64,000 nt of DNA from Amoebophrya sp. A120 (taxonomy: Eukaryota; Protista; Dinoflagellata), in contig CAJINV010000007.1 in assembly GCA_905178155.1 (NCBI GenBank), forward strand, positions 3,019,151 through 3,083,150, in the 5' to 3' direction. The translations under genes and the position numbers were made by a program. A model generated the notes under the pieces. That model saw nothing but the letters and a program-made list of their open reading frames with translations. It did no database searches and was not told where the DNA came from. Shown one piece after another: positions 7,415 through 63,413 of this stretch (its first letter is position 1; every line of letters starts with the position of its first letter).

Positions 7415-10400
7415 TCATCGCCCGGGACCGCCATTGTTCCCCATCATGTTCATCATGTTTTGCATCGCCTGGGGATTGTTCATCAAAGCTTGTATCTGCG
7501 GATCATTCATCATTTGCTGCATGGCCTGCGGGTTGTTCATCAGTGCCTGCGCCTGCGCCGCCATCTGCGGGTTGGAGGCCATCATCTGCTGTGCCTGCTG
7601 CGCCATGCCGGGCGGGATGTTCCCCATGCCGCCCGGGGGTGCCCCCCCGCCGGGCGTACCCATACCGGGCATCCCGCCGCCGAGGTTGTTCAGGAGTGGA
7701 TTTGTCATCCCGCCGGTCGCGCTGTGTGGTTGAAGTTGAACCAAGTAAAGGAACAATCTTCGATGATTCGCGTCTGGCGGAAAATAAATGGCGAACTCAG
7801 GACGTTGTCTCTAGCGTACGTCGTACTTAGAGATGAAGCAAAATAGGGAAAGAACGGTAGTACCTCATTGGCGCAGCAGCTCCCCCGAAACCTCCTGCAG
7901 TATTCCCAGCTGCACCCGGGAACTATCAAGTGGAAAGAAGCTAGCTGCATAAGTACATGATAATTGTGGAGTGGGCAAATTACCCTCTGCTACGCCTACA
8001 ACATCTGCGGCACCTGCAAGGCAAACGCAAACCTTTTGCAGCAGTTCCGGTTTGATTATACAAATAGCAAACATACACATTTCCTTGGATGCTACTAGCT
8101 CACTTTCAGTCGATAAGAGCTGCTGGGGCCTGGGTGCGGCGGGGAGTTTGGATTCCGCGGCGGAGAGCTTCGAGCAGCAGATGCGCAGAGCGTCTATCGG
8201 CAGCCTCGACGGATCGTAGACCCAGTAGTCCACCCCCTCTATCTCCTCGGGCGCGAACCCCATGGCGAGAATGCACTCCGTCCCGCCCAGACACTCCGCG
8301 ACCTTTTTGTTGAAAGCCGGGTTCTCCATCTTAATCTTTCGGAACTTTTCCTCGCTCGGCTTGTCCACGATGTTGCTGCACATCTTGTTCAGCGTGGAAA
8401 AGTATGGATTGCAAAAATGTCTGGGTCTGAAAGATTCTGAGACTTGTCATGCATGTTTTGCATAAGCCCTGATGTCTGTGATGCATGCCCTAGCATAACA
8501 GATTTGTTGAGGGCTTCTTGATGCCTATTCCGCATGACAAATGCCCTCTCCGCGTAGCAAAAATTGCATTCCCATTGCTGCTCATGCAATAGAGATTTTT
8601 TTGGAACCCAAATGCAGCATCACAAGTTGCATTCTTCCAGACCCAGACATTTTTACATTTGATAAAAAGCAGGCCCGCTTCTGCTCCGCGTCCGACAGGC
8701 TGCTCACCTCGGACAACGCGCGATCGATATGGATTGCAAAAATGTCTGGGTCCGGGAGAGTCATGCTGTTTCTGCATGACACGGAAGGTCTGGCATGGAA
8801 GCTCTAGCATCACAGGTTTCGAGAAGCTTCCGCAATGCCGAACCCGCATGACGAATTCCCCATTTTGGTGACAGAAAGTGGGCAGCTTTTGCTGCCTATG
8901 CATGAGAGATTTTTGCGTGTTCTGAAATGCGCATCACAGGTTGCATCCTTCCAGAACCAGAGATTTTTACATTTGATAATCAAAATCGTCAAACGACACG
9001 GACGCGGTGGAGGAGGTGGCCTGAATAAATTATTCATCAAGTCTTTGACAAGCAAACCTTTGCAACTACTTACGAAATGCAAGCCTCCAGTGCGAAGATG
9101 AATACATCTTCTTGTTATGGCTTAGCTTTTTCTTTTACCCCAAAAAAAGTACGCGGAAAATCTATCACCATTATACATCACGCAACATGATCCTGCTTAA
9201 CATGAAACATACCGGTGCTGTCCCGGGCACAACTCCTGGTGTTGGCACGGAGCTGCTCGTATTTCCGAATGGGTTGAAGGTATTGGCCGCGTTATTCTGC
9301 CGCATTTGGGTCTCGAAACCCTCGATCAAGCCGCGGAGCTGCTGGCCTTGCGGTGTGGACAAGGCTTTTTATAAAGTTAAAAAACCTCAACATCGCAGCC
9401 GTTGTAAGTAGTTATTTCTCCTTCGCAAAAATTCAAGTACCTAAATATGTAAAGACAGTGGATAAGCTGCATACTTAGCAAATTCATTCGCTTTGCCTCG
9501 TGCAAAAAGAGAAATAAAATCATGCATGGGATGTGAACCGCGATGATTTTTCTTCCAATACTTCGTCCGCGACGTTCACTATGCGGTCGGGCACAGGAGT
9601 ACCTGAAGCAGTTTCGTCAACGTTGTAAACATTCTCTGTAATTATGACTCGGCGCTCAGCGGTTCATAGACGGCAACATCTTTAAGTAGCATAGAAAAAG
9701 CAAAAAAGATGGAAAAAATTGTGTACACACAAAGTCGTCGAAAACAAATCACGATACCGCAGAGAAACTTCGACACTTCGTTGGCGAAGTGATTGCAATT
9801 GTGCTTCAGCAAGTTGTAGGTCTGCTGGGTGAAGCGGGGCGAAATTTCCGCCAAAAAAGCGTTCAGTTCCGCTTCGGTTTTGGTCGCTTCCCCGAACTCC
9901 AGCACCTCGCACGGCCGCATGGGAATGGCCTGCCCCGCGGCTGTCACGCAAACACCGCCGCCGAAAAAGTATTCTTTCGTGGTATGGGACGGAAAAAGAA
10001 AAAGGGCCCCCCCGTGGCTCTGCTAAGTAACAAACGACTATCCAGTTAGATTCCAGAGACAGTCGCAGGGTCGCAGCGCAAAAGGGTATCACATTTCCGT
10101 TGGTTTGAAACTCAATAAACACAAACTTTGTCATTGCAAAACACATTACATTCCTTCAACCAAAGGCCAGGAGGGCACTTTTCCTCTTGATAGCCGAAGC
10201 AGACGATTCCCGTGTGGGGGATGATGTCAACCTGACAAGTGGTGAAACGATTGAAATTCGGAAAAAATTTTTCAACCACAAACAATAGAAATCGATATTG
10301 AAGAGCAATATCAGTTATGCATGCATGACAAAACGTGGACATCGCCTAGCAAAAATGAGAAGTTCTTCTACCTGCTTTCCCAGCAGCGGCATGCTCATCA

Positions 10401-10763
10401 TCCTCGCCATTCCCTGCGGTGTGAAATGGAAAAAACGCCCCTACCCCAGATGAGAGAGCTAGTGATTGTTAACATGCGAACAAAAAATATGTTCCGTGGA
10501 GACAGCACGTGTCATGCCTTTTGCGACGTGCTTCAGCAGTAGTACTACACATTTCCAACTTTGTACTGCACGGAACCTGTTGTTCGTCATGTCTCTGGAC
10601 TGGACCGTCCTTGAAAAAGAACGTGGCTTTAGCCCTTCATGCAAGGAAGAAAGTTTCCCATTCAAAGCTGCGCAACAGCAAAAAGGATTCTCAACTCCGT
10701 GGCCTGGACGTTTTGCGATCTCATATGTGAGATGTCATACACATAACACTGAACGCGCGGCAT
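7415..10763 (-). CDS. PPPDE/DeSI-family isopeptidase with PUB domain and C-terminal STI1-like (NP/DP) region; 11 exons
   Basis: Reconstructed MPRVQCYVYDISQGMARMMSMPLLGKQVDIIPHTGIVCFGKEYFFGGG...YNLLKHNCNHFANEVSKFLCG (catalytic His and NCN Cys), then PUB (CFSTLNKMCSNIVDKPSEEKFRKIKMENPAF...ILAMGF), then MMNDPQIQALMNNPQ. Needs 4 GT-AG introns and 6 TIR introns. Confidence 0.85.
7924..8115. mobile_element. Degenerate introner (192 bp)
   Basis: TIRs TATCAAGTGGAAAGAAGCTAG / rc TATCGACTGAAAGTGAGCTAG; flanks GGAAC/AGAGC. Removal plus 5 nt gives in-frame QQLPGAAGNTAGGFGG. Confidence 0.7.
8403..8664. mobile_element. Introner family 1 (262 bp), TSD AAAAG
   Basis: TIR TATGGATTGCAAAAATGTCTGGGTCTG...CAGACCCAGACATTTTTACATTTGATA; perfect 5-bp duplication at 8398-8402 and 8665-8669. 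Removal restores AEQKRACFSTLNKM in the PUB domain. Confidence 0.95.
8728..8978. mobile_element. Introner family 1 (251 bp), TSD ATCGA/ATCAA
   Basis: Family-1 TIRs; 4/5 TSD. Removal restores SFDDFDRALSEV. Confidence 0.92.
9370..9560. mobile_element. Degenerate introner (191 bp)
   Basis: Ends TATAAAGTTAAAAAAC...TTTTTCTTCCAATA; flanks CTTTT/CTTCG. Removal plus 5 nt gives VADEALSTPQG, whereas the nearby GT-AG pair would frameshift. Confidence 0.7.
9983..10192. mobile_element. Degenerate introner, family-2-like ends (210 bp)
   Basis: TATGGGACGGAAAAAG...CTTTTCCTCTTGATA; TSD largely decayed. Removal plus 5 nt restores the PPPDE motif IVCFGKEYFFGGG. Confidence 0.8.
10420..10725. mobile_element. Degenerate introner (306 bp)
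   Basis: TGTGAAATGGAAAAAACGCCC vs rc TATGAGATCGCAAAACGTCC; flanks TGCGG/TGTGA. Removal restores YVYDISQGMAR. Confidence 0.72.
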
Positions 10764-12321
10764 TGTTCTGGGAGGATTGATGTATTCTGTTCCGTTAAGT
10801 AATTTGTATGAATCAGAAGCGAGAAGCACCTCAGCCTCAAAGAGAAAGAGTTAAACTTGATGCTGGCTGCACATTACTCGGATTCAAATATCTCTAGCTA
10901 AATGGAAAGCAAGCTTTCGGAATCTACTTCAAAGATAACGTTCTTCTTTTTTCGCACTCAGGCTACTAGTGAATTCCCTGGCTCAGCCAAAAAACTGTCG
11001 GGGAGTAGAACCATATCAGGGGGTAGCAATTGACTCTTCTGGGATGATGGCTGTTGTGCAGGGGAGTAAATTTCTCTTGTCTTCTACATAAATTAGGTGC
11101 GTGTTTGAGCGGTTTTTTATTTTGATGTTCTCGTTAAGCGCTTATTTCTTTCACTCCGTATTGATTCGACACTCTTAGAAGCCGTAGGCTGCTTTTGCGA
11201 AATCTGTATACCTTTGCAGCTGAAGAACAGGACATTAAACTGCCAGGTAGACTGCTGCTTTGGAAAGATCTTGATTATAATGCCGCACTCTGCTCGAGCA
11301 CTCGTTCTGAAGCTACAAGCTACACGCGTGCTGTCACGAACACCGGGTTGTACAGACTGCACAAAACGAATTCCGTGTACCTGCGTTGTGGTTTACGGAA
11401 GCCGTCAATGGGAAAAGCTCTGCAACCTTGTTTTATCCATCGGTGCAGCGCAAAGGCACGCCACACATCACTTACTTGTTTTGAATAAGGTGGGAACACA
11501 ACGTCAAGAACAGGAGCACAACGTAAGTGAGTCGCATGACTCAGCAAAAACGCTGCAATTAGCAAACAAGTTTTGATGCATGAGGAATTTGCATTTATTT
11601 TCCAACACTTTTTTGTGCAACTGCAAAGCCCGAGGGTCCAAACTTGTGTCACCGCAACACCAGCGTTGCTTCGTCCAACCATCAGGCATTTGTACATTCA
11701 TTTAGTTAACAGGAAGACCGCACACAATGCTGCAGAAAGAACGCAACATCGAACCAGCGACAACTTCGAAAAAAAAATGCGGATGTTTGTCCGAGAACAT
11801 TTTGAAAAAAAAAATGGCACTGGCAACGAGCATAGTTGTACACAAAAAAGTTGTAGCTGTTCGGGGAGAGCTTCTGATCTGCCTAGGTAAAACTCTGTGC
11901 ATCATATCAACACCAAGTTGATGCGCACCAGAGATACTAAAACGCTCGCTACTTCTTGTGCTTTTTTGCAAGTGTTTGAAGATGATACTTTTCCACTTCG
12001 CTTCTTCGGGATCGCTTTCCGCGAACTTGTGGTGGACACTTCTTTTTGATTTCTTATTTAGTCGCTTGTGGCACCACCATTCTGAAGAAAAAAAGCGCAT
12101 ATCTGTTTCAACAACTAGAACTACATCGGCCTAGTACTAGATATCAATTTGGTTATAGAAAAAATTTCTGTGCAGCACCTGCGCAACCACTGGCGGCGGC
12201 CGGGCGAAAAACTATCGCTTCGCATCCAGCAGGTCTATCCGCGTTCTACTTCCGCAGACCCTTTACCCAAAAACTCCTGTTTCATCGCGGGTGCGAATAC
12301 TAGAGCCTTTTTATTTACCCA

Positions 12322-15300
12322 TCACCTGTAAAACCCACCCACGCCCCCGCCGGCGCCGTTATCGCCACTGGTCACGTTGCTGTTGTTTCGTCGCGCTTTC
12401 TGCGGCGAAATGTCGTAGTAATGGTCTAGGTGTACGCTGCTGCCCCGGTGGAGAGACGACGACGCCGCGCGCACGTGCTGTGGCTGGTCAATGGCGGAGG
12501 TTGTGCGCAGGTGCTGTGGCTCCCTCTGGTTGTTTTTTTGCTGCTGAGTAGAGGAATCCGAGGAATGCGCGGAATTAGGCCTACTGTTGTGCTGCACCAG
12601 CGGCTGTTGACTGCTTTCTGTGTGGTGGTGTCCTCGCTGTGACGGCCTTCTGGGTGTTGTCGCGGTTGGAGCTGCACCCGCGCGTTGCTTACTTGTAGAA
12701 TATTGTCCGGTGCAAAAGAGGTGTAGTGCCGCAAATATTTTAATAACCAACGAGCGACGACCTGACCAGCACCTGACATGATCATGGCCGTATATCTTAA
12801 CGGTTATCAGACCTACAAAGAACGGCCGTCCTTTGATGTCAAAAATGCATTTCTTAATGGAGGTGCACCTGGTGCCCGATATTAGGTAGAACAAGCTTTT
12901 GCACTGGATACAGCACCATTTGCTCCACTCGGGTCGACCGTTGCACTTCCGTCGCCTGGTTCATTTCCGCTTGCATTCGCCAGTGCGTTGCGCAGATTCC
13001 CGCTCACGTCGCGCCAGGTCAGACTACCGCACTCCGAAATCAGGTCGTGCAGTACCGACATCAGCACCGACAAGTAGCACCAATCCGGATCCGCTGCGCA
13101 GCGCTGCGAACACTTTTGGAGCTGCGCTTTTAACCGGGTTACGTTGCTGGCGGAAACCTGGGAAACGTTCTCCTTGCAGAATTGCTGCTTCAGCTGCTGC
13201 CAGTCCTTGCCCGACGTGCCCTTGAATGTCGCGAACAGCTGCTGCCAGATCTGTTGTTCGATTTTATTCATAATGGTTGTGGGAGGTAGGTAGGTAGGTT
13301 TACTCAACTACGGAGTTCTAATAGTCTATATTATTTGATGCTTTTATAGACTATTTGGTGGCTGGGGTGCTGCCAGATCGTTCATGTCTGCCTCCTGGGG
13401 TGGCGTTGCCTGCTTCTTTCCTTTGCAGGTCATCTCATGTTTCTGCATATATAAGCGGCAATGAGTTGACGCGGGCGAATAAATTATTTTACCGATGTTG
13501 AAAACCAAAACGCAACAAAGAGTGGTGGTAGAGAGGATGCACAGCAAGATCGCTTGAGGTGCCGGAATTATATCGCTGTTCTTCACGAAAAAATTTTACG
13601 AATCTTACTCTCGTCGCGTCTCTCCAGTATTGCTTCCAGGCATCGTATACATCCAGGATCGCTTGCGCTAGCACGGAGGACGGACAGTCTGTGTATCAGA
13701 GTGCACAAATCCGATTCCCCCACGACATCAACCTGAAGTGCTACTACCGCAAAAGACCCAAGAGCACAGATGCACGCTCTCCTGCATGACCATTGTTCCA
13801 CGGAGGTCGCACTACAGTAGAGGGCTTTTGTCACAATGCAACCACTGCTCTGAGGCTATGACAAAGTGTAGATTTTCTGGTCATCATAGTATGCACATAG
13901 AAAAGAATCGCAGTGGAGGGAGTAGTTGTGCACTCATACTTCAGACTCCGGGTTTAGCGAGTGCGATGAGGAGGTTTTGGAGCTAGTTCTGGACGCAGAA
14001 TTCAAGCCAGTTCGCGAAGATTCCTGTTCCTCCACACGATCGCAGAGATGGAACAGAAGCTCCATGCAGGTTATGCCCATCGCGAAGTGGTCCAGCCGAG
14101 TGCGGTACTGGCGGCAATCGTCCTTGCTATTCTGGAGGTACTTCCAGCCGTACAGGAACTGCTTCCACGAACTCGGCGGCCAGTACTTGCAGTCGCCGCT
14201 ATCAACTGTAAAAATGTCTGGGTCTGGAAGATAGTGACACTTGTCATGCACGTTTTGCGTGAGCCCTGATGTCTGTGATGCATGCCCTAGCATCACAGAT
14301 TTTTTGAGAGGAGCTTCTTGATGCCTAGTCCGCATGACAGATGCCGTCTCCGCGTAGCAAAAATTACATTCCTTTTGGCACTCATGCAATACAGATTTTT
14401 CTGGAATCCAAACGCAGCATCACAAGTTGCATTCTTCCAGACCCAGACATTTTTACATTTGATAGCCGCCGATGTCGAACACTTTCCACATGCCGTCCGC
14501 CCCCTCGTCGTGGTGCGTGGGGAACATGGACCGGTTGGGCGCAAACTGGTCTCCCGCGCCGAAGTACAGACCGCCTGCGATAAAAGTGCACGTTTTTATC
14601 TTCAGGAAACTTCGCCAAAAATTGCAACTGGGCAGCACCATATTGGTATATATCAAAGTAAAAGCTACAAATTCCATGCCTCCAGTACCACATCACTGAT
14701 CGCAATCAACTACTTACCTCTGCCACAGCGGCCGTAGTCCCGTCCCCTCCACTCCTTCGCGTTAACAGCCAGTCCGAAGTCAATCAGCCAGAAATCCATG
14801 CAGGCTGCCGCCCCCAAAGTGTCCTCCATGATGAGGTCTGCGCTGCTACCCGCGGGAAGTACTGGTCCGACGGCCCCGGCAGAAGAAGAGCCGCTGGAGG
14901 ACGAAGAAGAGCCGCCATTTTGGTGTTCCTGTTGCTCGCCCTCTTCCGCCGTCGTGCTGTCCATTTCTTGCTGGCCCGTGGTGCGCGCAGAACTCGAGTT
15001 TTCAGCACCGTCCTGGTGTTGACTACTATCACCCCTGCTGTTCGAGGAGGACATGGACGTCGTGGCCGCGGTGCAGGAAGAAATCAGGATGTTGTGCGAG
15101 TTGACGTCTCGGTGCAGCGCTTTCTGCTCCACCTGCTCAAAGGTCGGCGCCAGCTGCGCCAGCAGCCGGTACGCCAGCCGGCTGGACTCCGCAAAATCGC
15201 GCCAGAACCGCCCGCGCCGGGGGGACAGGCGCTCGGAGCCCCGGGCCCGCTCGATCCAGCTGTCCAGCGGCTCCCCGGGGAGCCGCGACATTACCACCCG

Positions 15301-16677
15301 GATCCGCCACTCGTCGCGTTTTACCTGCCGGACCTCGTACTCTTCGCACAGGGGGGCGCGCACGGATTTCTTCCCCAACTGCCGCATTAACTCCACCTCG
15401 AACTGCGCCTGGCGATACCTTTTCGGGTTTTTGATGGTATGATGCCACCTTTTAGTGATATAGGATTTTAGAATGAATGTACTTCAAATCATTTTTATGC
15501 AGAAACTGACGCATGATGCGTATCGAAACAAGAGGAAAAACATACGCCTTCTCGCCGATGCAGCGGATTTCTTTGAGCGCAAAATCCCTTCCGGACGGCC
15601 CGGTGTCCAGCGCACGTTTGATTTGCCACACACAGCCGAAGGAGCCCTTTCCGAGGGGGCGCAGCACGCGGTAGGTTTCGCTCCGGCCTCCCCGTCCCAG
15701 AATCTCGATCACATTTCCCTCCGCCAGAGAGTCTGAGATGTTGTTGCCGCTCTGGGAACTCGGAATCGTCAGCTTCGTCCTCCCCTGTTGCTGGTGTTGA
15801 AATTTAGTGCTACTACTACTCCCTTGCTCCGCGTTGATCGCCTGATTTGCTGTACCTGCTTTCGGCGGTGCAGAAAACTGATTGATCTTATTTATCCCCG
15901 CTTTACTATTATTCCCATACGCATGATGATGCCCATGATGACCTTGACTGGTTCCACCCCCGACAATCGGTCGCGTGGAGGTCGCAGACGCGGTACCATT
16001 TGCATTTGCACCAGCACTGTAGATCTGCTTATAGCCCGGCATCGAAGAAGAGGAGGAACTGCTTGAGGACGTGCCCGTTTCGAGTTGCGGAACCAATGTG
16101 GCGGCCGACGGATTGGGCGAGTAGCGGTAGATGCCGTTGGAACTGCTGCCTGTACTGGAGGCTCCATTTTGTTGCACGACCAGCCCGTGGTTTTGCACGG
16201 GCTGGATCCGGGTCCCCGCTTTTTGCTGGACCAGTATTGCCCCGTTTGAAGCATGCGGTAGGTGGCTGGAGGAGGATCTGATTGATGTTCATCGATGAGT
16301 AGTTTCTTCCTGGAAAACCTTCATGCTACGGACGCAATTATTTGTCTTTGTTTCATTACATATCGATATTTGAAGAACTTTGCATGTAGTCTACTGTAGC
16401 ACTACGTATTGCTGCATCCCTTTCATTTCCTGAGGACATCAAAATGAAAATGATTCACTGTGCCCCGACAGAGCAGTCAATACGATGTGCTTGGATGCGG
16501 GTGGCCCGCCGGACCCGCACCCGGCTTTAATCCCTGGTTGGCACCACCACCGACCACCACGCCCCGAGTGTTTGCTTGCACGCCCAGAGTGGGGATCTGC
16601 AGAACCGGCTTCAGTTGCGGTCGGTACAGCGGCGAGGGGCCCTGGCTCGACGCAGTTTGCCAGTTGGAGGTCAGCAT
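12322..16677 (-). CDS. Ser/Thr protein kinase with low-complexity N- and C-terminal extensions (multi-exon)
   Basis: LGKGSFGCVW, FALKEI, FEVELM, LHRDVNSHNILI, IDFGLA, and GGDCKYWPP (only after removing the 14200-14464 element), then LDHFAMGITCMELL. The 3' end is uncertain. Confidence 0.85.
12701..12886. mobile_element. Probable introner with an irregular end, direct repeat TAGAA
   Basis: Starts TATTGTCCGGTGCAAAAG; perfect TAGAA flanks at 12696-12700 and 12887-12891. Removal joins AKACST to SKQRAGAAP in frame. The right TIR ends GATA followed by 5 extra nt. Confidence 0.55.
13694..13938. mobile_element. Degenerate introner (245 bp)
   Basis: TATCAGAGTGCACAAAT...GTTGTGCACTCATA; flanks CTGTG/CTTCA. 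Removal plus 5 nt gives ESEDCPSSVLAQAILD, whereas the GT-AG alternative hits a stop. Confidence 0.75.
14200..14464. mobile_element. Introner family 1 (265 bp), TSD GCCGC
   Basis: Family-1 TIRs and a perfect TSD. Inserted in the kinase activation segment (DIGG|DCKYW). Confidence 0.95.
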
Positions 16678-17835
16678 GGTTTCTCAAATGGTTTTCGCGA
16701 TCTGTTGCTTATTTTGCGAACTACTCGTGTCTTCACCGCGAGAAAAGACAGCGTTAGCCCTTGAGTAACGTCACAACACGGCGGGAAAATGAAACTCGCG
16801 GCTGGATCAAATTCTGCGCGAGAGGAAAAAGTGCCGTGTGATGTTGTGTAACGCCACTCTCCTGCGTGCGACGACAAAAAGTATGCCTTGAACGGTGTTT
16901 CTGCGGGACCGAGTTGCTTGTCCAGCAGGAAATCGCGGTGCTGCGCTAGCGTTGCGGCTCCACAGCTGTAATTCCTTTTCCAAGGAAGAAGAAACAACCT
17001 TGGAAATGAACAAGGCGTTTACTCTTAGCACGACAAGCTACTCACGTTCGTTGCCTTTCATCTTTATTTTTGCACGAGCTACAACTCGAGTTCGTTCTTG
17101 CACAACAGCATTACTTACACCAACCACCGCCTGAGTTGCGCTATTGCAGCGCCGCCTACTTCTTGAGGACTTAATATTTTTATCCATGAGCACGAGAAGC
17201 ATGAGGCACTGCTCAAAAACGGCAACGAGACAGAAAAAAGTTCTTCCAAAAAACTTACTCCTTAGCTTAGCCCAACGAACCACATTGACAAGATCACAAC
17301 AGAATAATACAGTATTTTGCACATCATTGTGAAGACCATATTCAACACCACCAAGTGCTCCCGCCCGTCTGATTTTTGACTTTTTGGCCACGTTCCGAAG
17401 ATACGGGCTCACCATTTTCATTTTTCCCACAGCGCATACTTATTTCCCGAAAGGAACAAGAGATGAAAGAAGAGTCTCACTGTAGCATTTTCTGTGGTAT
17501 TCAACACAACAACGTGGATGCTTCGTCGATTTTTCTTCGTCGATTTTGTTTTTGATGATACTTATGACCTGGAAGCCCGCCCAAACCGTCTTAAACGATA
17601 ACTACGCACATCAAAGCCACACCTTCGCAAGAACAACTAGTTATGAACGCGGAAGTGATGTGTCAGCTAACAATTGGACACGACGTCTTGCCACGCCCGA
17701 CATGGAAAGACGGAGAAAAGTTGTCGCCAAATGTTGAACAAGCTCCCATTATACAGATTGCGCAATAAACGCGAGGAGCACTTTGACTTTGTGCCCGTCC
17801 TCTATGTTTTCATTTCACGACAGGTAAATCCACCT

Positions 17836-20800: not shown

Positions 20801-22520
20801 ACCGAAAAAGTTGCAACTTTCTCCCGTGTCAGTTCTTTCGTCGTCGTCCGCGGCTGCGAAGACGACATCTGAACATGAGGATTAGTGCTTCTACCCGTCG
20901 TTATTGGCTGCAAAGACGTCCAAGCGAAAGGTGACGGCGCTGCGGAAAAAGCACTTGCGGAAGTTTGCAACGGGGACCAGACGGGCTGTGTGGCGTTCGA
21001 GCCTCCTTTTCCGGAGGGTACGGCGGAAGCAACTACCAAATTTCGATTTACTACTGGTGCACCCGCCCCGGGCAGCTGCTGCGCTTCTATACTACTGCTT
21101 TCCTTCCGCCCCGGACGAAGATGCTGATGAAGATCCCCGCCTTTACCACTGCTCCCCACGACTCCACCCACTCCAGAGGAAGAACTGCCTGCAGGAGTCG
21201 CAACGGGACCAGCAGCCTTCTTTGTGTCATCCGGCAACCGGAGTTCCCCGGCACCGAGCGGGATGTTGTCCAGTTTCAGCCGGTCCCATTGGTGCTCCAG
21301 TTGGAACAGAATCACCATCGGAATGTCCTGCGGGAGTTTCTGCAGCGCCTGCGCGTAGTCGAAGTCGCCGTGGGCAAACCCGAGGTCTTTCAGCAGGTAC
21401 CGCCGCTTGTTGTTCTGGAACGAGGTGTCCCGGTCGCTGACGATGCGAAACACGTTATCAAAAGGAAAAATCCCCCCGCCCCATATCGAAAAGAAGTGTC
21501 TGATGCTGGATTTCAGTACACAAATCAGATGTCTCTTGCAGTAGAGGACTGCAGGCATATGCCAAGCCTGAGCCGAGAGGTTTTGGCGTAGGCTCCTAGC
21601 ATGAAAAACAAAAACGTCGAGGGTGTAGGCCCAACAGCATCACAAACCGCCTGCATAATGCGGCGGATTCTGTGGATTTGCCTTCATGCAAGACAGACAG
21701 GATTTGTGGTCACAAATCTGCATCATAGATTTTCAGAAGGATGCACTTTCAATATGGGGAGGGGGGATTTTTCCGCACGATACACGTCCGCCTTTTCCAG
21801 GTGCCACTGCCCCTCCTTCCGGTAGTTCCCCCACTGGTCCAGGCTCCAGGACGGCGGGACGCGCTTCGTCCGCGCGGACCAGTTGGGCACCGTGCGGTTG
21901 CGCACCTCGCGGAGCTTGTCGTGCAGCTTCTCGTCGAACCGGTGGACGTCGATCATGTTGCCGTTCACGCGCAAATACAACGACTGCACACAGATCTCCG
22001 TCTGGTTGTAGTGACCACTCGCGAGGGCGTGATTCGTGCGGAACGTGACGCGCGGGTACCAGGGCAGCACCGCGATGGCACGGAGCACGGAACGGAGCCC
22101 GAATTCCGTGATGTAGTTGTCCGATAGGTGAATCTCGTGCACGGGCGACCGGACCGCCTGCAGGTAGTCCACCAAGGCGTCCATGGCGGCGTCCGCGAGT
22201 TGATTCCGGTAGAATTTGAGCACCTTGACCGAGATGGTGAACTCGCGCAGAAAGCAGAGAAGCGCATCGAAGCCCTGGTTCCCGATCTGCTGCTTCGACA
22301 GGTCAACTTCTTCCAGGTGCACCAATCGGGGTTCGTTGGCGGCGACGCGGTCCAGCAGCCCCTTGCGCCAGTGCGCCAGCTGGCTCTGCAGGCCCTGCGA
22401 GGTCACGCGCTGCGCATAGTGCGGGTGCTGGTGGGGGGTGGAATTGTTCGGTTTAAAATCCGCCCGGATCACGCCCTTCGTCGGGTCTTCCGTCGCCACG
22501 TGCAACTGCGCCAGGTACAT
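17836..22520 (-). CDS. RI-like leucine-rich-repeat protein with a long Ser/Gln/Gly-rich region
   Basis: LEEVDLSKQQIGNQG, VKVLKFYRNQLADAA, VHEIHLSDNYITEFG. Joined in frame to ORF 18115..21558 by removing 21456-21782. Probable last GT-AG intron at ~18036-18120; the start may lie further upstream. Confidence 0.7.
21456..21782. mobile_element. Introner family 2 (327 bp), TSD CACGT
   Basis: TATCAAAAGGAAAAATCCCCCC...GGGGGGATTTTTCCGCACGATA; perfect TSD; restores EKADVFRIVSD. Homologous along its length to 54951-55271. Confidence 0.95.
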
Positions 22521-23513
22521 CTTTCGCCTGAGGGGGGATTTTCTTCCGTTTACTACTATTATAATCCGACAGTAGCCCTTCTCCTCACTTCACCCCGCCG
22601 CTGCTCTCAGGCGGTTGTACGGGGTAGAAGTATCACCATAATGTCGATACCAGCGCCACACTACACTCTTGTCCCGGGCAGCGCCGCATCTTCGCTTTCT
22701 ACCTCGTTTTTTCCCGTGTCGTTGCGGTCCCACCATCTCCGGCAGTCTTCATGCCGGCCTGAAGTTGTTGCGGGGAAAGCAGCATATCATGTACTGCAGC
22801 TGGGGCAACGTCGCCCTCGCTGACGCTTAGTAGTAAGCACATATGCGTCGTGTTGAAAACAAACTTCTTTGACAACTTTCATTTCTAGTGCTGACTAGTG
22901 TACGTTTAGTGCCAAAGAGCGAAAGCGTCCTCGTGTTATTACCTGAGTCAGACCTACAACTACAATCAACTACTTCGAAACGGACTACATTAGTGTGACA
23001 AATACTCCTCGAAAATGTCAAAAACGAAGTGGTGACCTCCCTAGTTCAAAATTTCGCTAAAACTTACTGGTGTACTGTCCCGAAAGTTGTCAACATTAAG
23101 TACTAAATTCTAGCAGCTGTACTGCTACAGAGTACGATGTTGCAGTCGCATAGCAATGCCTACTCCGATTTCATGTTCAGAAGTCCTTGCATCTTCACCT
23201 TTACATCACGAATTGACTATCGATTTCCAAGAACGGTACTGCTTCTGGCGAGAATTTTTTCTTCACTACAGCTCTTCGCAGGGCCCATCGGCTTCGCCCG
23301 GGTAAGATCTTTCAGGCGTAGAACATTAGTAGCAGTAGAACAAAATGATCTGCAGACACAAACTACTTCCCACCAACTCGATTAGCCGAAGCAGGAACTG
23401 CAGCTCGGGCCGCGCCGGGAAAGAAATTTTTTTGTCGAAGCAAGGTGCGAGCTTCTGTTTCATGTTCTTGTGGAATACTTCTCCTCGTGCGTACGTCGAT
23501 GAATCATCGTTTT

Positions 23514-44000: not shown

Positions 44001-44375
44001 TCGAATTACGCCGGCTCCCTAACTCCATCGAGGCAGTAATACTGCTTCGTCGCCGGAAAGTTCACTTATCCCGGCGAAATGATTCCTGTGCCAGCGACAC
44101 CGGGTCCTCAGGGTGTGATTCTACTTTTCTCGCTACGTTCTACAAACTTAGAACGTAGCGCAACGTATGCAAAGCCAAGCAAGTCAACTTGGCGATTGTT
44201 GCACAAGAAACGCTGGAGTACTTACTTACGACAAGGTCATCTCTACTAGATCCCTTGTTCCATACAAGACAAACACAATTTCACCAGGATAGCGGACCAA
44301 CTCGGTATTGAAATTTGCATTCAACAGCTGCGAATCCGCCATTTTCGAAGCACGACCTTTCGATTTATTCGACAT
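41016..44375 (-). CDS. Uncharacterised multi-pass membrane protein (multi-exon)
   Basis: Exons join in frame via GT-AG introns (LKR|GSMQPK, LLR|YPLYFY) and via removal of 43047-43308; several hydrophobic helices. The 5' exons are uncertain. Confidence 0.6.
43047..43308. mobile_element. Introner family 1 (262 bp), TSD ACCTC
   Basis: Family-1 TIRs (right end CGTA) and a perfect TSD; restores QQSAEVRHAQK. Confidence 0.93.
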
Positions 44376-45323: not shown

Positions 45324-48300
45324 TCAAAAAGTGTCATCGGAGTGCTCGTCCGGCAACAGCCCCCCGTGCTCGTGTCGCTTCTTCCACAGGGGCTTCTCCT
45401 CGCTGCCGCTTGGTTCCGGCGTGTAGTGAAATTCTTCTTTGATGTTGTGCTTCACATTTTTCCCACTTTCCGAACCATCATTCTCCGACTTTTTCTTATC
45501 CACCTTCTGTCGCTTCGCGCCCGGGTGGCTGCTTTTCTCCAAGTCCAGCAAGCCGCCAGACAACCGCTTCAGCGTTCGCCGCACCGGGCTCATCAGCTTT
45601 TGCACCAACGACTGCCGCGACTGCTGGTCTGGCCAGTGGACCTGTTTTGATGTATGGCGTTGGAGTTTCCATGTTCTGAAGGGTGTCTTGCATGACAAAC
45701 ACCATGCTATGAGAGGATATGTATCTTGCATTACAACCAAGCAACTTTCCCGACCGATTTCGGCGTCTGGCCCGGTGTCTTCTGTCCCTTCTTCCGCAAG
45801 GCGCTCCGGGGCGTGGCCTTCTGCGCCTGCCCGCCGACTCGGCCACGCGAGCGCAGGTAGTCGAAAACCGTTACCGTTTTCGCGTCAAAGGCTTCCCGCT
45901 GCTCGGCGTGCTTTTTCTTCCGGGTTTGCAATTCCTGCAGTTGAGTGTCGTAGCGGTCGAGCGTGGCTTTCGCCTGCTGCAAAGCGAGGAAATTCAGCTC
46001 GTTTTTGCGGGATAAAACGTCCAGGTCGGACTGCAACTGGTCCTGCTCGGCGCGGGCCTCCTCAATTTGCTCTTCCACGCCTGAGTTTCAGGTTTTTTTT
46101 TCGCGTGCGGCAGCGCATAAATCGATTCAATAAACGAAAAGCACCGCGGCCGTGGCTCAAGTGCTTCATCTTCGCTTCTTGAATGCTTCGCTTAGCGCGT
46201 GCTTTAGCTTTGCTTCAGGCGAGCTGCTTCGCTTGAGTCGTGCTTCGCGTAAGCAGTGCGTTGTTCCAGCCGTGCTTCGCTTAAGTGGTGCGCTACTGCT
46301 TAAGTAGTGCGTCGCTTAAGTCGTGCGCCGCTTAAGTAGTGCGCCGCTTACGTCGTGCGCCCCTTCAGTAGTCCTTCTCTTCAGTGGTGTGCATTAGTGG
46401 CGTGCTTCAGAGCTTCGCTCAAGTGCTTCCCTTAAGTGCTTCGCGTAAGTGCTTCGCCTAAGTGCTTCGCGTAAGTGCTTCGCGTAAGTGCTTCGCTTAA
46501 GTGCTTCGCTTAAGTGTTTCGCTTAAGTGTTTCGCTTAAGTGCTTCGCTTAAGTGTTTCGCCTAACTGTTTCGCCTAAGTGTTTCGCCTAAGTGCTTCGC
46601 CTAAGTGCTTCGCTTAAGTGCTTCGCGTAAGTGGTTATGTAGTTCGGTTAAGTAGTTCCCCTAAGTAGTTCACTTAAGTAGTGCGCTAAAGCGATACAAA
46701 AAAAGCGTGACAGCGGCAAGAAACAAAATAAAAAAAGATGAAAATATACGTGTGGCCATCTCCCTTCGCATGTTGACAGCGGCTTTATCCTGCTCGACTT
46801 TCCCCTCGAGTTTCACTACTTCGGCTGCCAGCAGGCATGGTATCAGATGGACAGAACTGGAAACTCAAGTGCTTTTATGTCGCAGCGACAACATCTATTT
46901 GCAGTTCCGCCCCAAGTAAAAATATGGAGTCTTGTGGTAAAACGGTTCCTCCATTACGCTCTAGGAAGTCGCATAAATCACAAATAGAAATAAGTATCTA
47001 TTTTGTAATAGCGCCCTACTGGTACTTCTTGTTCCTACCTCAATGTGTTCTTCACATCTGATACCTTGTGCTTGCTCATAGGCTTTCTCGAAAAACGCGC
47101 CCCTTGGGTTCTGCAACGCTTCCCGTAGACTCTTGTCCGCGCCAATTTCGACCAACGTGGCTTGTGCCTTTGCTTTTCTGGCTTCCAGAGCAGACGGGGG
47201 TAGATTCACACCAGCTCCGCCGCTGTTGCTTCCGCTTGTAGTTTCGGGATTTATTTCTTCGGGTACAGCAAGAGCAGGCTGTTGTTTTTCTTCGTTTTTC
47301 TTCTCTCCACTGTTATTCTTCCAGCTGCAATCATCCGGTTGGGCTTCGTCGGCACAGGCAGCCGCTGGTCCCCTTCCGGTGAAAACCTCGGCGCCATACT
47401 GCTGCACCTCCTGCAGGCTCCGGAGCTTCGTATGCATTTTTCAAAGGCCTTTTCTGTGCTCCTGGTCCTGCTCGTAATTGACTTTGCATCACCTTTTTGC
47501 CTCCAACGAGAAAGAAAAGCTCAAGTACTTACTTATGATCTGCAAAAATTCTTATAACAGTACAGAAGACTTTTGCATTGCAACCCATACTTCTCCCGAC
47601 TCGCCGCAAGCTGCGCGTCTGCGGCTTTCTGCCCCGCGCGGCAGTGCTGCAGCGTCTGCTCGTGTTTGACGAAGCGTCGCTGCGCGTCCCCCAGTTTGTC
47701 CTGCGTCGTGGCCTCTTCGGCTAAGGTTTCGTTTTTCCTCTCTGCCGCCCACTGCAGGCTTTGAGCGGCATCAGCGCGGAACTTCTCGCACACTTCGACG
47801 CCTGGAGGTTTGTTGAACAATAAATCGATTCAATTATCACACCAGCATATTTTGACACAATGTCGCTAGTGGTGCACTTTGATGCAGAAGTAAGATTCAT
47901 TATCATCATCACCATCTCCGTCTTCACAGCCAAACCACAGGAAATACGGCGCGCCAGGTCCTTTCCATTAGCCACCAGCAGCGCGGTTGCAGTCTGGATC
48001 AGATCTCCCACACTTTGGGTTTTGTGCAAGGCAAGCCTTGTCGCTCAAGAAAAGCAGATTCTTCTAAAAAACTAAAACAGAATGATCTTCAGGCGTCTTT
48101 CTGATTTGCACATAAATCTCTACTGCTGTTGTACGCAAGCCCAATGCAGCAGTTCCTTGCCATTGTCTTGCTTTCGCAAGCCTTGGTTGGAGCGGTCGAT
48201 GTTAAACTTTTTTGCGGCGGAATCGAGATGACAAACTCCACTCCCCCCTGGATACAAAACCTCGTGGTGGGATTGGTGTCGCGCTCCGTAAGGTAGTGCC

Positions 48301-52897: not shown

Positions 52898-53040
52898 TAA
52901 CAATTGTGATGTTGGTGGGGTGCACACCACCAGCGTCACAAATTGTGATGTCTGCGCCTGTAAGAAGATCGATTTTACAGGCGCAGGCGTCACAATTTGT
53001 GGCGCTGGTGGTGTGCACCCCAGCAATACCACAATTGTTA
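52898..53040. repeat. 143-bp near-perfect palindrome in the divergent intergenic region
   Basis: ~66-bp arms (TAACAATTGTG...GGGGTGCACACCACCAGCG...GCGCCTGTAA and its reverse complement) with an ~11-nt loop. Confidence 0.92.
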
Positions 53041-54591: not shown

Positions 54592-57500
54592 ATGCTCAAA
54601 CCCCCGAGGGTCTCCGAGTCGCTACACTGCTACCTGATCCAAGAGCTCTGTGAGCGTGTTGCACGCATTCCCAAGGAGAAAAAAAGTATACTACTAGTTC
54701 CCGGCATCGGTATGAAATGTATCCGCGCCCGTGCGACTGCAAGAAGAGAGCACTCACGAGCAGGAGGGGTAGCACAAATAGCTTCTGCACCGAAGGTAAA
54801 AGATGGATCACATATATGCGGCAAAACAAAACTGAATGGCACCATTGCGCAACCCCCGCCGGGAAAACTCGCGCGCGTGCCTTGGCAGAGCGATCGCGCG
54901 CTCTTGGAGAAAGTCGCAGGCGCACTCGGACGTCTGGGTTTCACGCACCGTATCAAAAGGAAAAATCCCCCCTCCCCATATCGAAACGAAGTTTCTGATG
55001 CTGGATTTCCATACCCAAATCAGATTTGTATTGCAGTAGAGGAGTGCAGGCATATGTCAAGCCTCAGTCGAGAGGCTTTGACGTAGGCGCCTAGCATGAC
55101 AAACGTGTATGCTCTAAGCCAAACAGCATGACAAACCGCCCGCAAAATGCGGAAGGCTTTCTGGACTTGCCTTCTTGCAAGACAGACAGGATTTGAGGTC
55201 ACAAATGCGCATCACAAATTTTCAGACGGATACGTTTTCGATATGGGGCGAGGGGATTTTTCCTTTTGATACACCGCCCCCGGATTTCAGAGAATGGCAT
55301 TGTCGTTGCACGCAGTCCCCGGCGCGTCGCCGCGGTCTTCCGGGTCACATCCGTCGCGGAGCCGAAGCGCCGGGTGCCAGTTTCGGAGCTCGAGCAGTGC
55401 TTCTCGCATTCAGGAGTGGCGGAAAGTGGAACGCAGCACGGCCTGGAAGGTTTCCGAGACGACCGAGCCTGCCCAAGGGGTTCTACTTCAAGCTCTGCCA
55501 GTACTGCTCCCGATGAATCTGCCGTCACCATTTGGGACTGCACCGTTGCGGCTGATCGCGTGCGGTACTTGTCTTCGGGCGAATTGCAGCTCTACCTCGC
55601 GGCCCACCTGCGGCGGGTGTTGCACCGTCGAGGCCCGGGTGCGGCGGAGCAGGATTTCGGAGTTCAAGCGAATGCGGCGCCAAACGAGAGCACGCCGCGG
55701 CCCGAAAGCGCAGTTTCAGTACAGCTTTTCGGTTCAACATCTGCAACAGACCTCACGCCGGCACGCACTGGCCAGTCGTTTCCAGCGCGACCACCCCGTT
55801 CTAGTGGGACCGAGCAAGAATCCACGGACCCAGCGCCCGCGGTCGCAACTGCCGCGGACCTCGTCCGGCGTCTGATCGGCGCATCCGCGACCTGGCGTGC
55901 AAGTGCGGATGAGCTCGCCGCTGTTGAGAAATCTTTTTCGAGAACGAGGGCAGAGGGACGAGACGCATGTGGTTCTTTCGCCGCGATCAAACAAAAGATC
56001 GGTCGACGGTTGGGTCTCTTTGAAGCGGCCAACTTGCCTTATCGAAACCGGCTCAGCTGCCGGGACGCAGCGAGAGTGCTCGATTGCCTCGCGCGAAGAA
56101 GTGTTGAAATAGATGCGCAAGGGGTTTGCGACCGCGCACTTCTGTCCGCCCTGCAAGCGGAACTGCTGTTTTCCTTCCCCAAGCTGCGACCGCAGGAGAT
56201 CGCGAACGTGTTGTGGGCGACGGGAAAAGTACCGAGCCTCCACGAAAACGCACGTCTGGTCTTCCGCCACGCCTTTCTCGTGGTTTTACCCAACGTGGAG
56301 GTTTTTCAGCCGCGGCACCGTATCTCGGAGGAATAGAGGCAGGCTTGTGCTACGTACTTTATCTTCTATCATGCAGAAAAATGAAAATTGCGAAAAATAG
56401 TTTGCGTATGCACGATCAGGCAGCATCCCAGCACGCGAGACAGAGTCATCTGTTGCATTCTGCATTGTCGCATTTTACATACTGGCCTTTTCCTGAAGGA
56501 TACACGTGGCCAATATCTTATGGAGCTGCGGGGCGGTGCAACACTTGGATCAGCAAGTTTTTCAAAAAATTTTGAACCGGCTGAGGGCATGCTACGACGT
56601 CTCGCAGGAGAGAACAATTACGGGACCACCACCACTTATGGCGTCCGAGGGCAGGAGCGACTTAGATCCACGCTCACGGTGGAACAAGGAGGACACCAGC
56701 TGTCACAAAAACGCAAACTTGCAGGACTTCGCTAATGCCTGCTGGGCGTGCGCGCGGGTGAACCACTTTGATCACTCGTTTTTGAAAGCTGCGCAGCAGA
56801 TGTACCTGAAAGAAGCACGAGGAGGAGCTGCGCCGGTCACAGTTGCTACCTTTCCACTTTCGCCACCAGTTTTGCGAAAACGTGGAATTGCTTCATCGTC
56901 GTCGCGCGGCGCAAGCCTCCAGGAAGCCAGCTCGATCTGCTGGGCGGTAGCGTGTTGTGGTAAAGTCGACGACGAGTTTTGGGTTCACAAGAGGTCACTT
57001 GCGACCCCGGTGCCGGATTTTGTTGACACATCGTTCTTCAGTAGTGTCGCGGATGCACTGGTGCGGGAAGCGCGGCTGGACCGTCCTTCGCTGAATGATC
57101 CTGGCAAGTGCGGCTCTGCAGCTACTGTTATTTTACAAAAACCTGTTATCATCACTCTCCACGCCTTCGCGACGCTTGGACTGTATCACAAACAGTTGGT
57201 TTTCGAAGTCCTGCCGCAGCTAAACGTGGACACCTTCTCACCGCAGGACGTCGCAAACGTGGTCTGGAGCTTGGCGTATTTGATGCAACAAGATGCGGGG
57301 ACGAATGAAAATTCGCGGTGCGCGTGGTCTAATGCAACTTCTCAGGCAGATGTATCGGAAGCTGGTGGGCCAACTGCGTTCAGCGAGCATGGCAGTGAGG
57401 AAGAAGAGAACACAAGACGTTGGCTCCGACCATGGCTGGATGAGTTGGTAGAGCACGCAAGGAAGAGGATTTTCGTCCTGCCACGATGCGAAGAACGCCT

Positions 57501-62100: not shown

Positions 62101-63413
62101 ACTAATAGTGGTGCACTTGTTACAACCAGCACGGAACAAGCAGCACAAGCCGACTCCGCATCCGAAGCGGGTGGCAGCATGACGTTTGTGTTTGTCGCAG
62201 CGGGGGTCGGCGCGCTAGCCTTGCTCCTGGCCTCGGGCTACTTCATCAACAAGCGGATGCGGGAGCGGGAAACGGAGAAAATCTCCAACAGCGACGACGA
62301 CGTTGTGTATCAAATGCAAAAGTGTCTGGGTCTGGAAGAATGCAAGATTTGTGATGCAGGTTTTCCATGACCCATGAGGTCTCGATGCGAGACCCAGCAT
62401 GACAGATTCTTTGAGGTCTCTATCATGCCTTTCCTGCATGAGAAACTCCCTGTCAACTTGGTCAAAAGCAGACAGCTTTTGGCACTTACGCAGCACAGAT
62501 TTTTGCATCATTTAGATTTAGCATGACGTGTTCCATTCTTCCAGACCCAGACATTTTTACATTTGATATTGTGGAGAGAACCGCGATGGGGGTGAGTCCC
62601 AAGGCAAACAAAGAGCAGATTCTTGCCGGAAACATCAAACAAGGGGCGCAGCAGCATCCGAAGTCCGAATTTAAAAACAAGAAGGCCGCTTACGAGATCA
62701 TGGACGACGCGTACGACAACGGTTGCCTGGTCAATGTTCCGGACGACGAGGACCTGGCTGTTCATGCCAAGTCCTCGTCAACTACCCAGAAGACGACCGG
62801 AAACAGGAAGAAATCCGGGTCTTCGGGCCGGAATGGAACAGCATCAGCACCTCCGGACCCGGCGCAGCAACAGCAGCATGAAAGCTCTATGGCCCAGAAC
62901 TCCCGGGCCATGTTGGAAAATTTAAAGCGCGAGCAGAGGGAAATGAATGCGGCGCCGTCGCGCGGTCGGGATCGCGGCGGCCGGAACTCGGTCTTCGACG
63001 GTTCAAGCCGAGGAGCGGGGGACGGGAGACAGCTGAATGTGCACCAAAGTGGCACCAGTGGAGGGGTACCGGCACCCCCGGTCGAGCGGGTCCCCTCGTC
63101 GATCAGCGGCGTGACGCCGGTCCTAGCAGGGGGAGAAATAATTTCCAACGGCAAAACGTCGTCGCACAGCAAGAAGCCGCGCACAAAGAAGCCCTACGCA
63201 GACTACCAGCAAGAGATGCAAAACACGGTCCAAAAGCCGACCGGGGGTTTCACTAAGCCCAGCGAGCAGGGACGAAACAGCGGCAATTCTAGGGCGAATA
63301 GCTCTTCGTCCTCTTTCCGAGCCGCGTCGCTGGAAGTGCTGGCCGACGACAGCACCAATCTCCGATCGCCCGGGGCCTCCATCAAAAAACCCCCGAAAAA
63401 GGGGCGGAAGTAA
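59170..63413 (+). CDS. Type-I membrane adhesin-like protein: signal peptide, TSP1 repeats, Thr-rich stalks, SEA-like, cupredoxin-like and TPR-like segments, TM, long tail; one in-frame TAG
   Basis: WSSWSACSGGTQSRT and WSAWSSCT TSP1 motifs; poly-Thr; GERLRFVW...AYIACS...YLFASSEKCNSGHRLRVQV; TM FVFVAAGVGALALLLASGYFI. ORFs 59101..61269 and 61294..62370 share a frame, and the tail joins after removing 62308-62568. Confidence 0.8.
62308..62568. mobile_element. Introner family 1 (261 bp), TSD TTGTG
   Basis: Family-1 TIRs and a perfect TSD; restores SDDDVVERTAMG. Confidence 0.95.

What the first reader, a model, noticed from the sequence alone, without database searches (positions are those of the whole stretch)
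7924..62568. About 21 introns are miniature TIR transposons removed without GT-AG signals
Seen: elements of 133-327 bp with TAT-N7-AAA terminal inverted repeats and 5-bp duplications interrupt conserved coding motifs (kinase activation loop, PUB domain, BUB3 WD repeats). Deleting the element plus exactly 5 nt restores the frame each time. Eight regular coding copies have perfect TSDs, all of different sequence, so no shared splice dinucleotides exist. Known: invasive introner elements with inverted and direct repeats and non-canonical borders are reported for Amoebophrya, and as far as I know how they are spliced is unresolved. Inference: a structure- or TIR-guided RNA excision system operates alongside ordinary GT-AG splicing within the same genes.
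Basis: partly seen in the sequence, partly recalled or inferred. Interest (0 to 1): 0.9.

Follow-up and report, generated by a model that had tools for sequence, protein, structure and literature searches.

The report
Amoebophrya transposon introns, fixed cut register
These inserts are the already published transposon-like introns of the marine parasite Amoebophrya A120; spliced transcript assemblies lack each one that could be checked, together with exactly five flanking bases and at one shared position, likely because a modified spliceosome reads the element's ends instead of the usual GT-AG signals.

Summary
Observation confirmed; the element class is published. I count 22 elements (133-327 bp, TAT-N7-AAA inverted ends), 8 with perfect, all different 5-bp duplications. 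The window's BUB3-like WD40 exon is 100% identical to an Amoebophrya sp. A120 protein, and Farhat 2021 describes this end motif and 5-bp repeats for A120 introners.

Spliced contigs skip 7 elements directly and 2 by exact length, always element+5 nt. Decayed duplications leave one common register: 1 nt before the 5' TAT and 4 nt after the 3' ATA. The intron therefore starts N-TAT, like the local GTA(T) donors, with U always at +2. An AG one base further on is not used (2 RNA-supported cases). A stable terminal hairpin is not predicted for 3 of 9 RNA-supported introns.

Best reading: a relaxed major spliceosome (0.6); rival: a separate Euglena-like system (0.3). The register was not in the passages I read, but the paper's Table S4 hints at it and this scan has noted it in six other windows of this genome. 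RNA evidence is assembled contigs of one sample; only one junction fixes the register alone.

The parts
7924..8115 (-). TIR element, singleton, decayed duplication (GCTCT/GTTCC); intron 7920-8116
   Evidence: RNA-type contigs skip 197 nt = element+5 in 4 of 4 runs of one sample; registers -1/+4, -2/+3, -3/+2 fit
8403..8664 (-). TIR element family 1, perfect duplication CTTTT, in PUB-domain region
   Evidence: skip of 267 nt; family scores
8728..8978 (-). TIR element family 1, duplication 4/5
   Evidence: skip of 256 nt
9370..9560 (-). TIR element, singleton; GT at -1 and AG at +4/+5 available but the AG is not used
   Evidence: skip of 196 nt = element+5, not 197
9983..10192 (-). TIR element, singleton, duplication 1/5; the one junction that fixes -1/+4 alone (intron 9979-10193, CT..AC)
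   Evidence: skip of 215 nt with 0 ambiguous letters
10420..10725 (-). TIR element, singleton, 3' end ACA
   Evidence: skip of 311 nt
12704..12910 (-). TIR element in kinase-like gene, duplication 1/5
   Evidence: contig pieces skip 12700-12911; -1/+4 or -2/+3
13694..13938 (-). degenerate TIR element; GT..AG one base longer is not used
   Evidence: predicted 445 and 3964 nt equal the observed contig lengths; GT-AG gives 444 and 3963 and a shorter frame
14200..14464 (-). TIR element family 1, perfect duplication GCGGC, between FDIGG and DCKYWPP
   Evidence: contig length arithmetic
21456..21782 (-). TIR element family 2, perfect duplication
   Evidence: sequence and frame only
24006..24291 (-). 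degenerate TIR element in WD40 gene
   Evidence: removal reproduces deposited protein P0001
26209..26341 (-). TIR element, 133 bp, perfect duplication
   Evidence: P0001 match
26401..26674 (-). TIR element family 1, duplication 4/5
   Evidence: P0001 match
26823..27087 (-). TIR element family 1, perfect duplication, 15/15 TIR
   Evidence: P0001 match
38890..39104 (-). TIR element upstream of rhomboid domain exon
   Evidence: sequence and frame only
43047..43308 (-). TIR element family 1, perfect duplication GAGGT; the only copy with an equivalent GT-AG register
44067..44291 (-). TIR element, singleton, duplication 1/5
   Evidence: sequence and frame only
46841..47063 (-). TIR element, singleton, duplication 3/5
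   Evidence: sequence and frame only
47431..47589 (-). degenerate element, weakest call, duplication 4/5; GT..AG one base longer available
   Evidence: frame only
54951..55271 (+). TIR element family 2, perfect duplication; opposite orientation to 21456 relative to its transcript
56321..56502 (+). TIR element, singleton; -1/+4 gives FQPRHLANILW in a FAST_1-type repeat protein
62308..62568 (+). TIR element family 1, perfect duplication; antisense to the other six family copies relative to its transcript
   Evidence: frame only
7300..10979 (-). host gene: PPPDE (PF05903) + PUB (PF09409) protein, 6 element introns and 4 GT-AG introns
   Evidence: one contig in each of 4 runs; 454 codons stop-free
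11638..17167 (-). host gene: kinase-like protein, 3 element introns and 4 GT-AG introns
   Evidence: 3964-nt contig; 931 codons stop-free
23480..27413 (-). host gene: WD40 protein identical to Amoebophrya sp. A120 P0001, 4 element introns and 2 GT-AG introns (lower coordinate approximate)

Best explanation
These are Amoebophrya A120 introner elements, short inverted-repeat inserts that spliced contigs lack together with five flanking bases, likely cut by a relaxed major spliceosome at one register set by the element ends. Steps: (1) inferred: non-autonomous DNA transposons insert with a 5-bp staggered cut; no empty site or transposase was seen. (2) shown for 7 elements, and by length for 2: the mRNA lacks element+5 nt, also where the duplication has decayed. 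(3) shown by intersecting 7 junctions: the only common cut is 1 nt before the 5' TAT and 4 nt after the 3' end, so the intron reads N-TAT...ATA-NNNN. (4) inferred: N-UAU is read as a donor that has lost G+1 but keeps U+2, A+3, U+4, like the local GUA(U) donors. (5) inferred: the 3' site is measured 4 nt from the TTT-N7-ATA end, whose U-run may stand in for the pyrimidine tract, not chosen by AG. (6) inferred: because both ends carry the same motif, either orientation works and any target sequence is restored, so the elements can spread through exons at little cost.
For: Identity: P0001, Amoebophrya sp. A120, 100% over 106 aa; Farhat 2021 section 11 gives TAT + 7 nt + at least 3 A for A120, Fig. 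S19 legend gives 5-bp repeats. RNA removal. Register: intersection {-1/+4}, predicted in note before the test. Spliceosome-like: canonical donors GTA 8 of 8, GTAT 4 of 8; G at the first intron base in 11 of 22 against 31% G in flanking exons (suggestive only); all 9 'predominant' A120 non-canonical classes in Table S4 have T at +2 and many are hybrids such as GT-AC, CT-AG; A120 keeps 83 of 89 spliceosomal proteins and U2, U4, U5, U6. Polarella class 12 introners (5-nt duplication NNAGG) use this same geometry with GC-AG ends (10.1101/2020.10.14.339549, passages). Tunicate spliceosomes with divergent U2AF handle non-AG ends (PMC13326754, passages).
Against: No lariat, branch point or spliceosome binding was tested; I found no convincing branch motif by eye. 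U at +2 follows automatically from a -1 cut on elements that all start with T. Only one junction (9983) separates -1/+4 from -2/+3, and it reads GT..AG on the opposite strand; without it both registers fit. An AG one base further on is not used at 9370 and 13694, which an ordinary spliceosome would favour, although those products would be frameshifted and may be degraded. U1 snRNA was not found in A120. Variable TIR positions 4-10 pair more than shuffled partners even in 13 singletons (48 of 91 against 32.8, p 0.00045; one element end was off by one base in that run), which fits a hairpin role as well as descent. Table S4 classes may carry aligner bias. RNA evidence is contigs of one sample whose RNA status is inferred from skipped GT-AG introns.
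Confidence: 0.6

Rival explanations
1. A separate, non-spliceosomal machine (endonuclease plus ligase, or an unknown RNP) reads the paired or motif-bearing element ends and cuts 1 nt before and 4 nt after them, as proposed for Euglena nonconventional introns.
For: No shared first or last dinucleotide (14 different 3' dinucleotides among 22); adjacent AG ignored; excess complementarity at variable TIR positions; Euglena has a fixed-offset inverted motif, N3CDG...CH'GN5-6|R, and its authors suggest distinct factors (PMC12501133, passages); U1 snRNA undetected in A120.
Against: The cut leaves U+2 A+3 U+4 as in local donors. Hybrid GT-x and x-AG classes are the commonest in Table S4, whereas Euglena's case for two systems rests partly on rare hybrids. 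Terminal pairing is predicted at 0.05 or less for 9370, 9983 and 10420, which are removed exactly.
Confidence: 0.3
2. The cut is not single: -1/+4 and -2/+3 (or nearby registers) are both used, and selection keeps the fourth base of the duplication identical so that both give the same mRNA.
For: In 14 decayed duplications position 4 still matches in 11, against 5, 5, 7 and 7 at the other positions (Fisher p 0.034 before correcting for picking one of five). Farhat Fig. 3 and S23 legends call the splice sites variable, 1-5 nt from the repeats.
Against: At 9983, where position 4 differs, only -1/+4 is assembled in 4 of 4 runs. The excess is not significant after correction.
Confidence: 0.07
3. 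The elements are excised from DNA in expressing cells, so no unusual splicing occurs.
For: Element+5 nt loss is what precise excision would leave; the RNA status of runs X3-X6 is a guess by the tool.
Against: DNA-type run X1 has single difference-free contigs through 7924 (7300-8428) and through 9370, 9983, 10420 and 12704 (8887-13311), at even depth of about 44. The cut lies asymmetrically with respect to the transcript, not the element. The same contigs also lack GT-AG introns. Contigs drop rare variants, so a small excised fraction is not excluded.
Confidence: 0.03

Closest known systems
Introner elements / non-canonical introns of Amoebophrya sp. A120 (Farhat et al. 2021, PMC7789003; read: abstract, sections 11, 12, 16, passages of 10 and 32, supplement passages with Table S4 rows and figure legends; figures not seen)
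   Same: Same organism, same end motif (TAT, 7 nt, A-run), 3-5 nt direct repeats with a 5-bp example, families plus singletons, mixed with GT-AG introns in one gene, RNA-supported, MITE-like, mechanism open.
   Different: [quoted passage not shown] Here all 7 junctions share one register, -1/+4, with U at +2. Its Table S4 already shows T at +2 in 9 of 9 top classes, and unseen figures S19-S23 may show the register.
Polarella glacialis class 12 introner-like elements (Roy et al., 10.1101/2020.10.14.339549; passages; the 2023 Curr Biol version not seen)
   Same: 5-nt duplication; donor made from the last duplication base plus the first element base; acceptor at duplication positions 3-4: the same -1/+4 geometry.
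   Different: Needs G and AG in the target (NNAGG), gives GC-AG introns, and can use another frame. The A120 elements need neither.
Euglena nonconventional introns (PMC12501133; abstract and passages)
   Same: No GT-AG, inverted motifs at fixed offsets from the cut, direct repeats that blur junctions, suspected MITE origin, coexisting with GT-AG introns.
   Different: Different motif and offsets (N3CDG...CH'GN5-6|R), hybrids rare, unrelated lineage; tested genetically there, untested here.
Fritillaria borealis non-canonical introns (PMC13326754 passages; review PMC11282704 passages)
   Same: Transposon-derived introns with TIR and duplication, removed by an adapted major spliceosome.
   Different: Preferred ends AG-AC / AG-AT and duplicated U2AF subunits; no such adaptation has been tested in Amoebophrya.

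Membership tests
Amoebophrya A120 introner elements | lies in the A120 genome | tested here: met
   window exon 100% identical to a protein named Amoebophrya sp. A120; whole 353 aa reproduced
Amoebophrya A120 introner elements | 8-20 nt inverted repeat starting TAT + 7 nt + at least 3 A | tested here: met
   weak in 13694 and 47431
Amoebophrya A120 introner elements | 3-5 nt direct repeat at the exon/intron boundary | tested here: met
   8 of 22 perfect 5-mers, 14 decayed; 103 of 120 family-1 ends in other contigs
Amoebophrya A120 introner elements | RNA-supported removal with non-GT-AG ends | tested here: met
   7 direct, 2 by length; 21 of 22 lack a GT-AG, GC-AG or AT-AC register; 13 not tested with RNA
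Amoebophrya A120 introner elements | repeated (family) sequence | tested here: met
   families of 7 and 2 copies; 26209 has relatives in 30 of 130 fetched loci; the other 12 are singletons, a class the paper also lists
MITE (non-autonomous TIR DNA transposon) | short, non-coding, TIRs, fixed-length target duplication, many copies | tested here: met
   133-327 bp; duplication exactly 5 (0 of 120 with 6-8); 96 different targets among 103
MITE (non-autonomous TIR DNA transposon) | empty orthologous site | not testable with these tools
   no genome held; no exon overlap among 130 fetched loci; handles not held
MITE (non-autonomous TIR DNA transposon) | cognate autonomous element with transposase | tested here: inconclusive
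   longest family-1 copy found, 972 bp, has no stop-free frame over 86 aa; search limited to 3 kb flanks
U2-type spliceosomal intron | GT (GC) ... AG ends | tested here: not met
   21 of 22
U2-type spliceosomal intron | U at +2 and donor-like +3/+4 | tested here: met
   T 22 of 22, A 22 of 22, T 21 of 22 in the -1/+4 register
U2-type spliceosomal intron | branch point and lariat; dependence on U2/U6 | not testable with these tools
   needs experiment or raw reads of this strain
Euglena-type nonconventional intron | N3CDG...CH'GN5-6|R signature | tested here: not met
   ends are N-TAT and ATA-N4
Euglena-type nonconventional intron | terminal pairing needed for removal | tested here: inconclusive
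   excess complementarity, but pairing 0.05 or less in 3 of 9 RNA-supported introns

The most novel reading that the evidence does not exclude
Amoebophrya runs a second intron-removal machine that needs no exon or boundary sequence at all: it binds the transposon end motif on RNA, cuts 1 nt before and 4 nt after it, and rejoins the exons, ignoring even an adjacent AG. That would be a portable, sequence-blind excision code covering tens of thousands of introns.
Probability: 0.25. Interest if true: 0.85.

Novelty: already known. Interest (0 to 1): 0.4.

Why it matters
The elements are published, so the finding is not new as a class. What matters is the rule: over 60% of A120 introns are non-canonical and how they are cut is open (PMC7789003). 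A fixed N-TAT...ATA-NNNN register turns that into a precise test: it says where lariat or linear ends must fall, which bases to mutate, and how to re-annotate genes. If a spliceosome does it, it has dropped both G+1 and the 3' AG yet cuts to the base, a wider relaxation than in the tunicate and Polarella cases I read. If not, it is a second splicing chemistry. Either way it would explain how a transposon can insert anywhere in exons without harm.

Tried and rejected
The first lay mixed in a DNA-type run whose repeat contigs flooded the joint table (15 of 694 rows shown), so junctions there come from the piece table only. No listed run was on record as RNA holder. Dropped candidates: 47534-47589 (replaced by 47431-47589), 23837-24219 (spans an exon of P0001), 867-1066 (outside the finding, no open frame across it), TAT-N7-AAA hits at 14597, 36556, 39183, 49384, 50657, 50844 and 57129 (no partner end). 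Genes dead or elements retained: rejected for the 3 genes tested. Distant cryptic GT-AG sites: rejected for 9 of 9 RNA-supported elements. Branch-point motif: looked at by eye only, nothing convincing. Transposase: none found. Empty sites: could not be tested. Literature: six searches listed no paper on the mechanism or register of Amoebophrya introner splicing; the library lacks most subscription papers, and supplementary figures are not held.
Full report
Observation. Motif and profile scans plus reading of frames gave 22 elements between 7924 and 62568, 133-327 bp long, with TAT-N7-AAA at both ends read inward. The list is hand-curated; about 40 weak end pairs were not followed, and the dropped candidates are named under Tried and rejected. 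Eight have perfect 5-bp flanking duplications, all different, against 0 in 12 simulated windows; 14 have decayed duplications. Seven copies form one family and two another. Of 148 ends examined, 120 closed into complete elements, 103 had a perfect 5-bp repeat, none a longer one, and 96 targets were different (some elements counted from both ends; 60 of 68 unique ones perfect). I cannot tell whether those contigs are another strain. The duplication is thus exactly 5 bp and the target nearly free.

Identity. The first exon of the WD40 gene matches one protein, 100% over 106 aa, named Amoebophrya sp. A120. Farhat et al. 2021 (PMC7789003) state that A120 inverted-repeat motifs start with TAT, followed by seven less conserved bases and at least three A (section 11), with direct repeats of 3-5 nt and a 5-bp example. 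They report 29,850 repeated introns in A120, call them introner elements, compare them with MITEs, and leave the splicing mechanism open. The class is therefore known.

Removal from RNA. Contigs of four runs from one sample (X3-X6; RNA by inference, since they lack GT-AG introns) give one 1.9-kb path through the PPPDE + PUB gene that skips four GT-AG introns and six elements, by 197, 267, 256, 196, 215 and 311 nt, each element+5. The joined path is stop-free for 454 codons. A 3964-nt contig of the kinase-like gene skips 12700-12911, again element+5. Its unlisted part is 445 nt; removing 14200 and a degenerate element at 13694, each +5, predicts 445 and a total of 3964, with 931 open codons, whereas one base more or less does not fit. 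For the WD40 gene, removing four elements and two GT-AG introns reproduces all 353 residues of the deposited protein, which is an annotation and may rest on the same RNA data. Nine elements have no RNA test. DNA-type run X1 carries five of the elements in unbroken contigs, which argues against common DNA excision. These runs may be the data behind the window's assembly, so they are not independent confirmation from a second strain.

The register. Perfect duplications hide the cut, decayed ones reveal it. From 12704 alone the cut was -1/+4 or -2/+3 (bases removed before the 5' end and after the 3' end, transcript sense); I noted -1/+4 as the prediction before laying the second region. The seven direct junctions share only -1/+4; 9983 fixes it alone, and without 9983 both -1/+4 and -2/+3 fit. 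The 9983 junction reads GT..AG on the opposite strand; I take this as chance, because the same contig has four minus-strand GT-AG introns, but it is a caveat. The intron is then N-TAT...ATA-NNNN. Only 1 of 22 elements (43047) has an equivalent GT-AG reading, and at 9370 and 13694 a GT..AG one base longer is present yet not the assembled form. All nine 'predominant' non-canonical classes for A120 in the paper's Table S4 have T at +2, which agrees, while its text says no clear signature and its Fig. 3 legend says variable sites.

Mechanism. The eight RNA-supported canonical donors start GTA, four GTAT, so the element's TAT supplies positions +2 to +4 of a local donor and only G+1 is free; G is still the commonest first base (11 of 22 against 31% background, suggestive only). 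Polarella class 12 introners use the same geometry with GC-AG ends, and Fritillaria shows that a major spliceosome can give up the 3' AG. A120 keeps most spliceosomal proteins and U2, U4, U5, U6 but U1 RNA was not found; a U1-70K homologue is reported for A25 (PMC12787238, passage). I therefore favour a relaxed major spliceosome whose 3' site is measured from the element end (0.6). The alternative is a separate end-guided machine as proposed for Euglena (0.3). Hairpin evidence is mixed: variable TIR positions pair above shuffled partners (90 of 154 against 66.8 for all; 48 of 91 against 32.8 for singletons), yet predicted terminal pairing is 0.05 or less for 9370, 9983 and 10420, which are removed exactly. 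Descent from TIRs explains the excess without any role in splicing. Both families occur in both orientations relative to their transcripts, but the inverted copies rest on frame only. That 5-bp duplications and TGT..ACA end variants point to an integrase-type transposase is recalled knowledge, untested; Gozashti 2025 reports TIR-flanked A120 introners with Copia/Gypsy homology (PMC12130899, passages).

Verdict. Real, RNA-supported and already described as a class. The fixed register is a refinement that I did not find in the passages read or in six searches; figures S19-S23 and the 2023 Curr Biol paper were not seen and may hold it. Six earlier notes of this scan on other pieces of the same genome report these introns, at least five with a fixed cut; I saw them after my own test, and they are not independent evidence. 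Interest 0.4: not surprising to a specialist as a class, but the rule makes an open question directly testable.

Noticed in passing
window, 14 decayed duplications: The fourth base of the duplication still matches in 11 of 14, against 5-7 at other positions. In the -1/+4 register this is last exon base = last intron base. Unexplained; p 0.034 uncorrected.
   Followed up: partly
window 8403, 8728, 14200, 26401, 26823, 43047, 62308: All 7 family-1 copies point the same way on the + strand, although six sit in minus-strand genes and one in a plus-strand gene.
   Followed up: partly
window 24326-26040: 1.7-kb GT-AG intron of the WD40 gene holds nested long inverted repeats (67-nt arms at 25050-25116 / 25914-25980, 41- and 42-nt arms inside): probably other, nested transposons.
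   Followed up: no
window 61267-61269: An in-frame TAG interrupts the long plus-strand ORF of about 59300-63400, with coding-like sequence on both sides: sequencing error, readthrough, recoding or two genes. Read by eye.
   Followed up: no
window 51500-54600: Strand-switch region between minus- and plus-strand gene blocks, with an AT-rich core, a 66-nt-arm hairpin (52898-53040) and GC-rich flanks; candidate divergent promoter or origin region.
   Followed up: no
window 46200-46690: 13-bp tandem array inside an apparent GT-AG intron.
   Followed up: no
window 867-1066 and 5333-5553: Further degenerate TIR-like pairs upstream of the finding's start; no RNA test.
   Followed up: partly
window 9603-9757, 10232-10371, 15419-15545: Some GT-AG introns have 4-5 letter junction ambiguity and GTAT starts; they may be old elements that became canonical. 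The paper reports repeats in 15% of A120 canonical introns.
   Followed up: no
L026 3001-3972: 972-bp family-1 element with perfect duplication and an inner TAT-N7-AAA at offset 209; no long ORF; possibly nested.
   Followed up: partly
window 27001-27087, run X9: A 2026 RNA run that lacks the exons has over 100 reads on a 90-95% alike family-1 end with other flanks, so a related element is present in its RNA.
   Followed up: no
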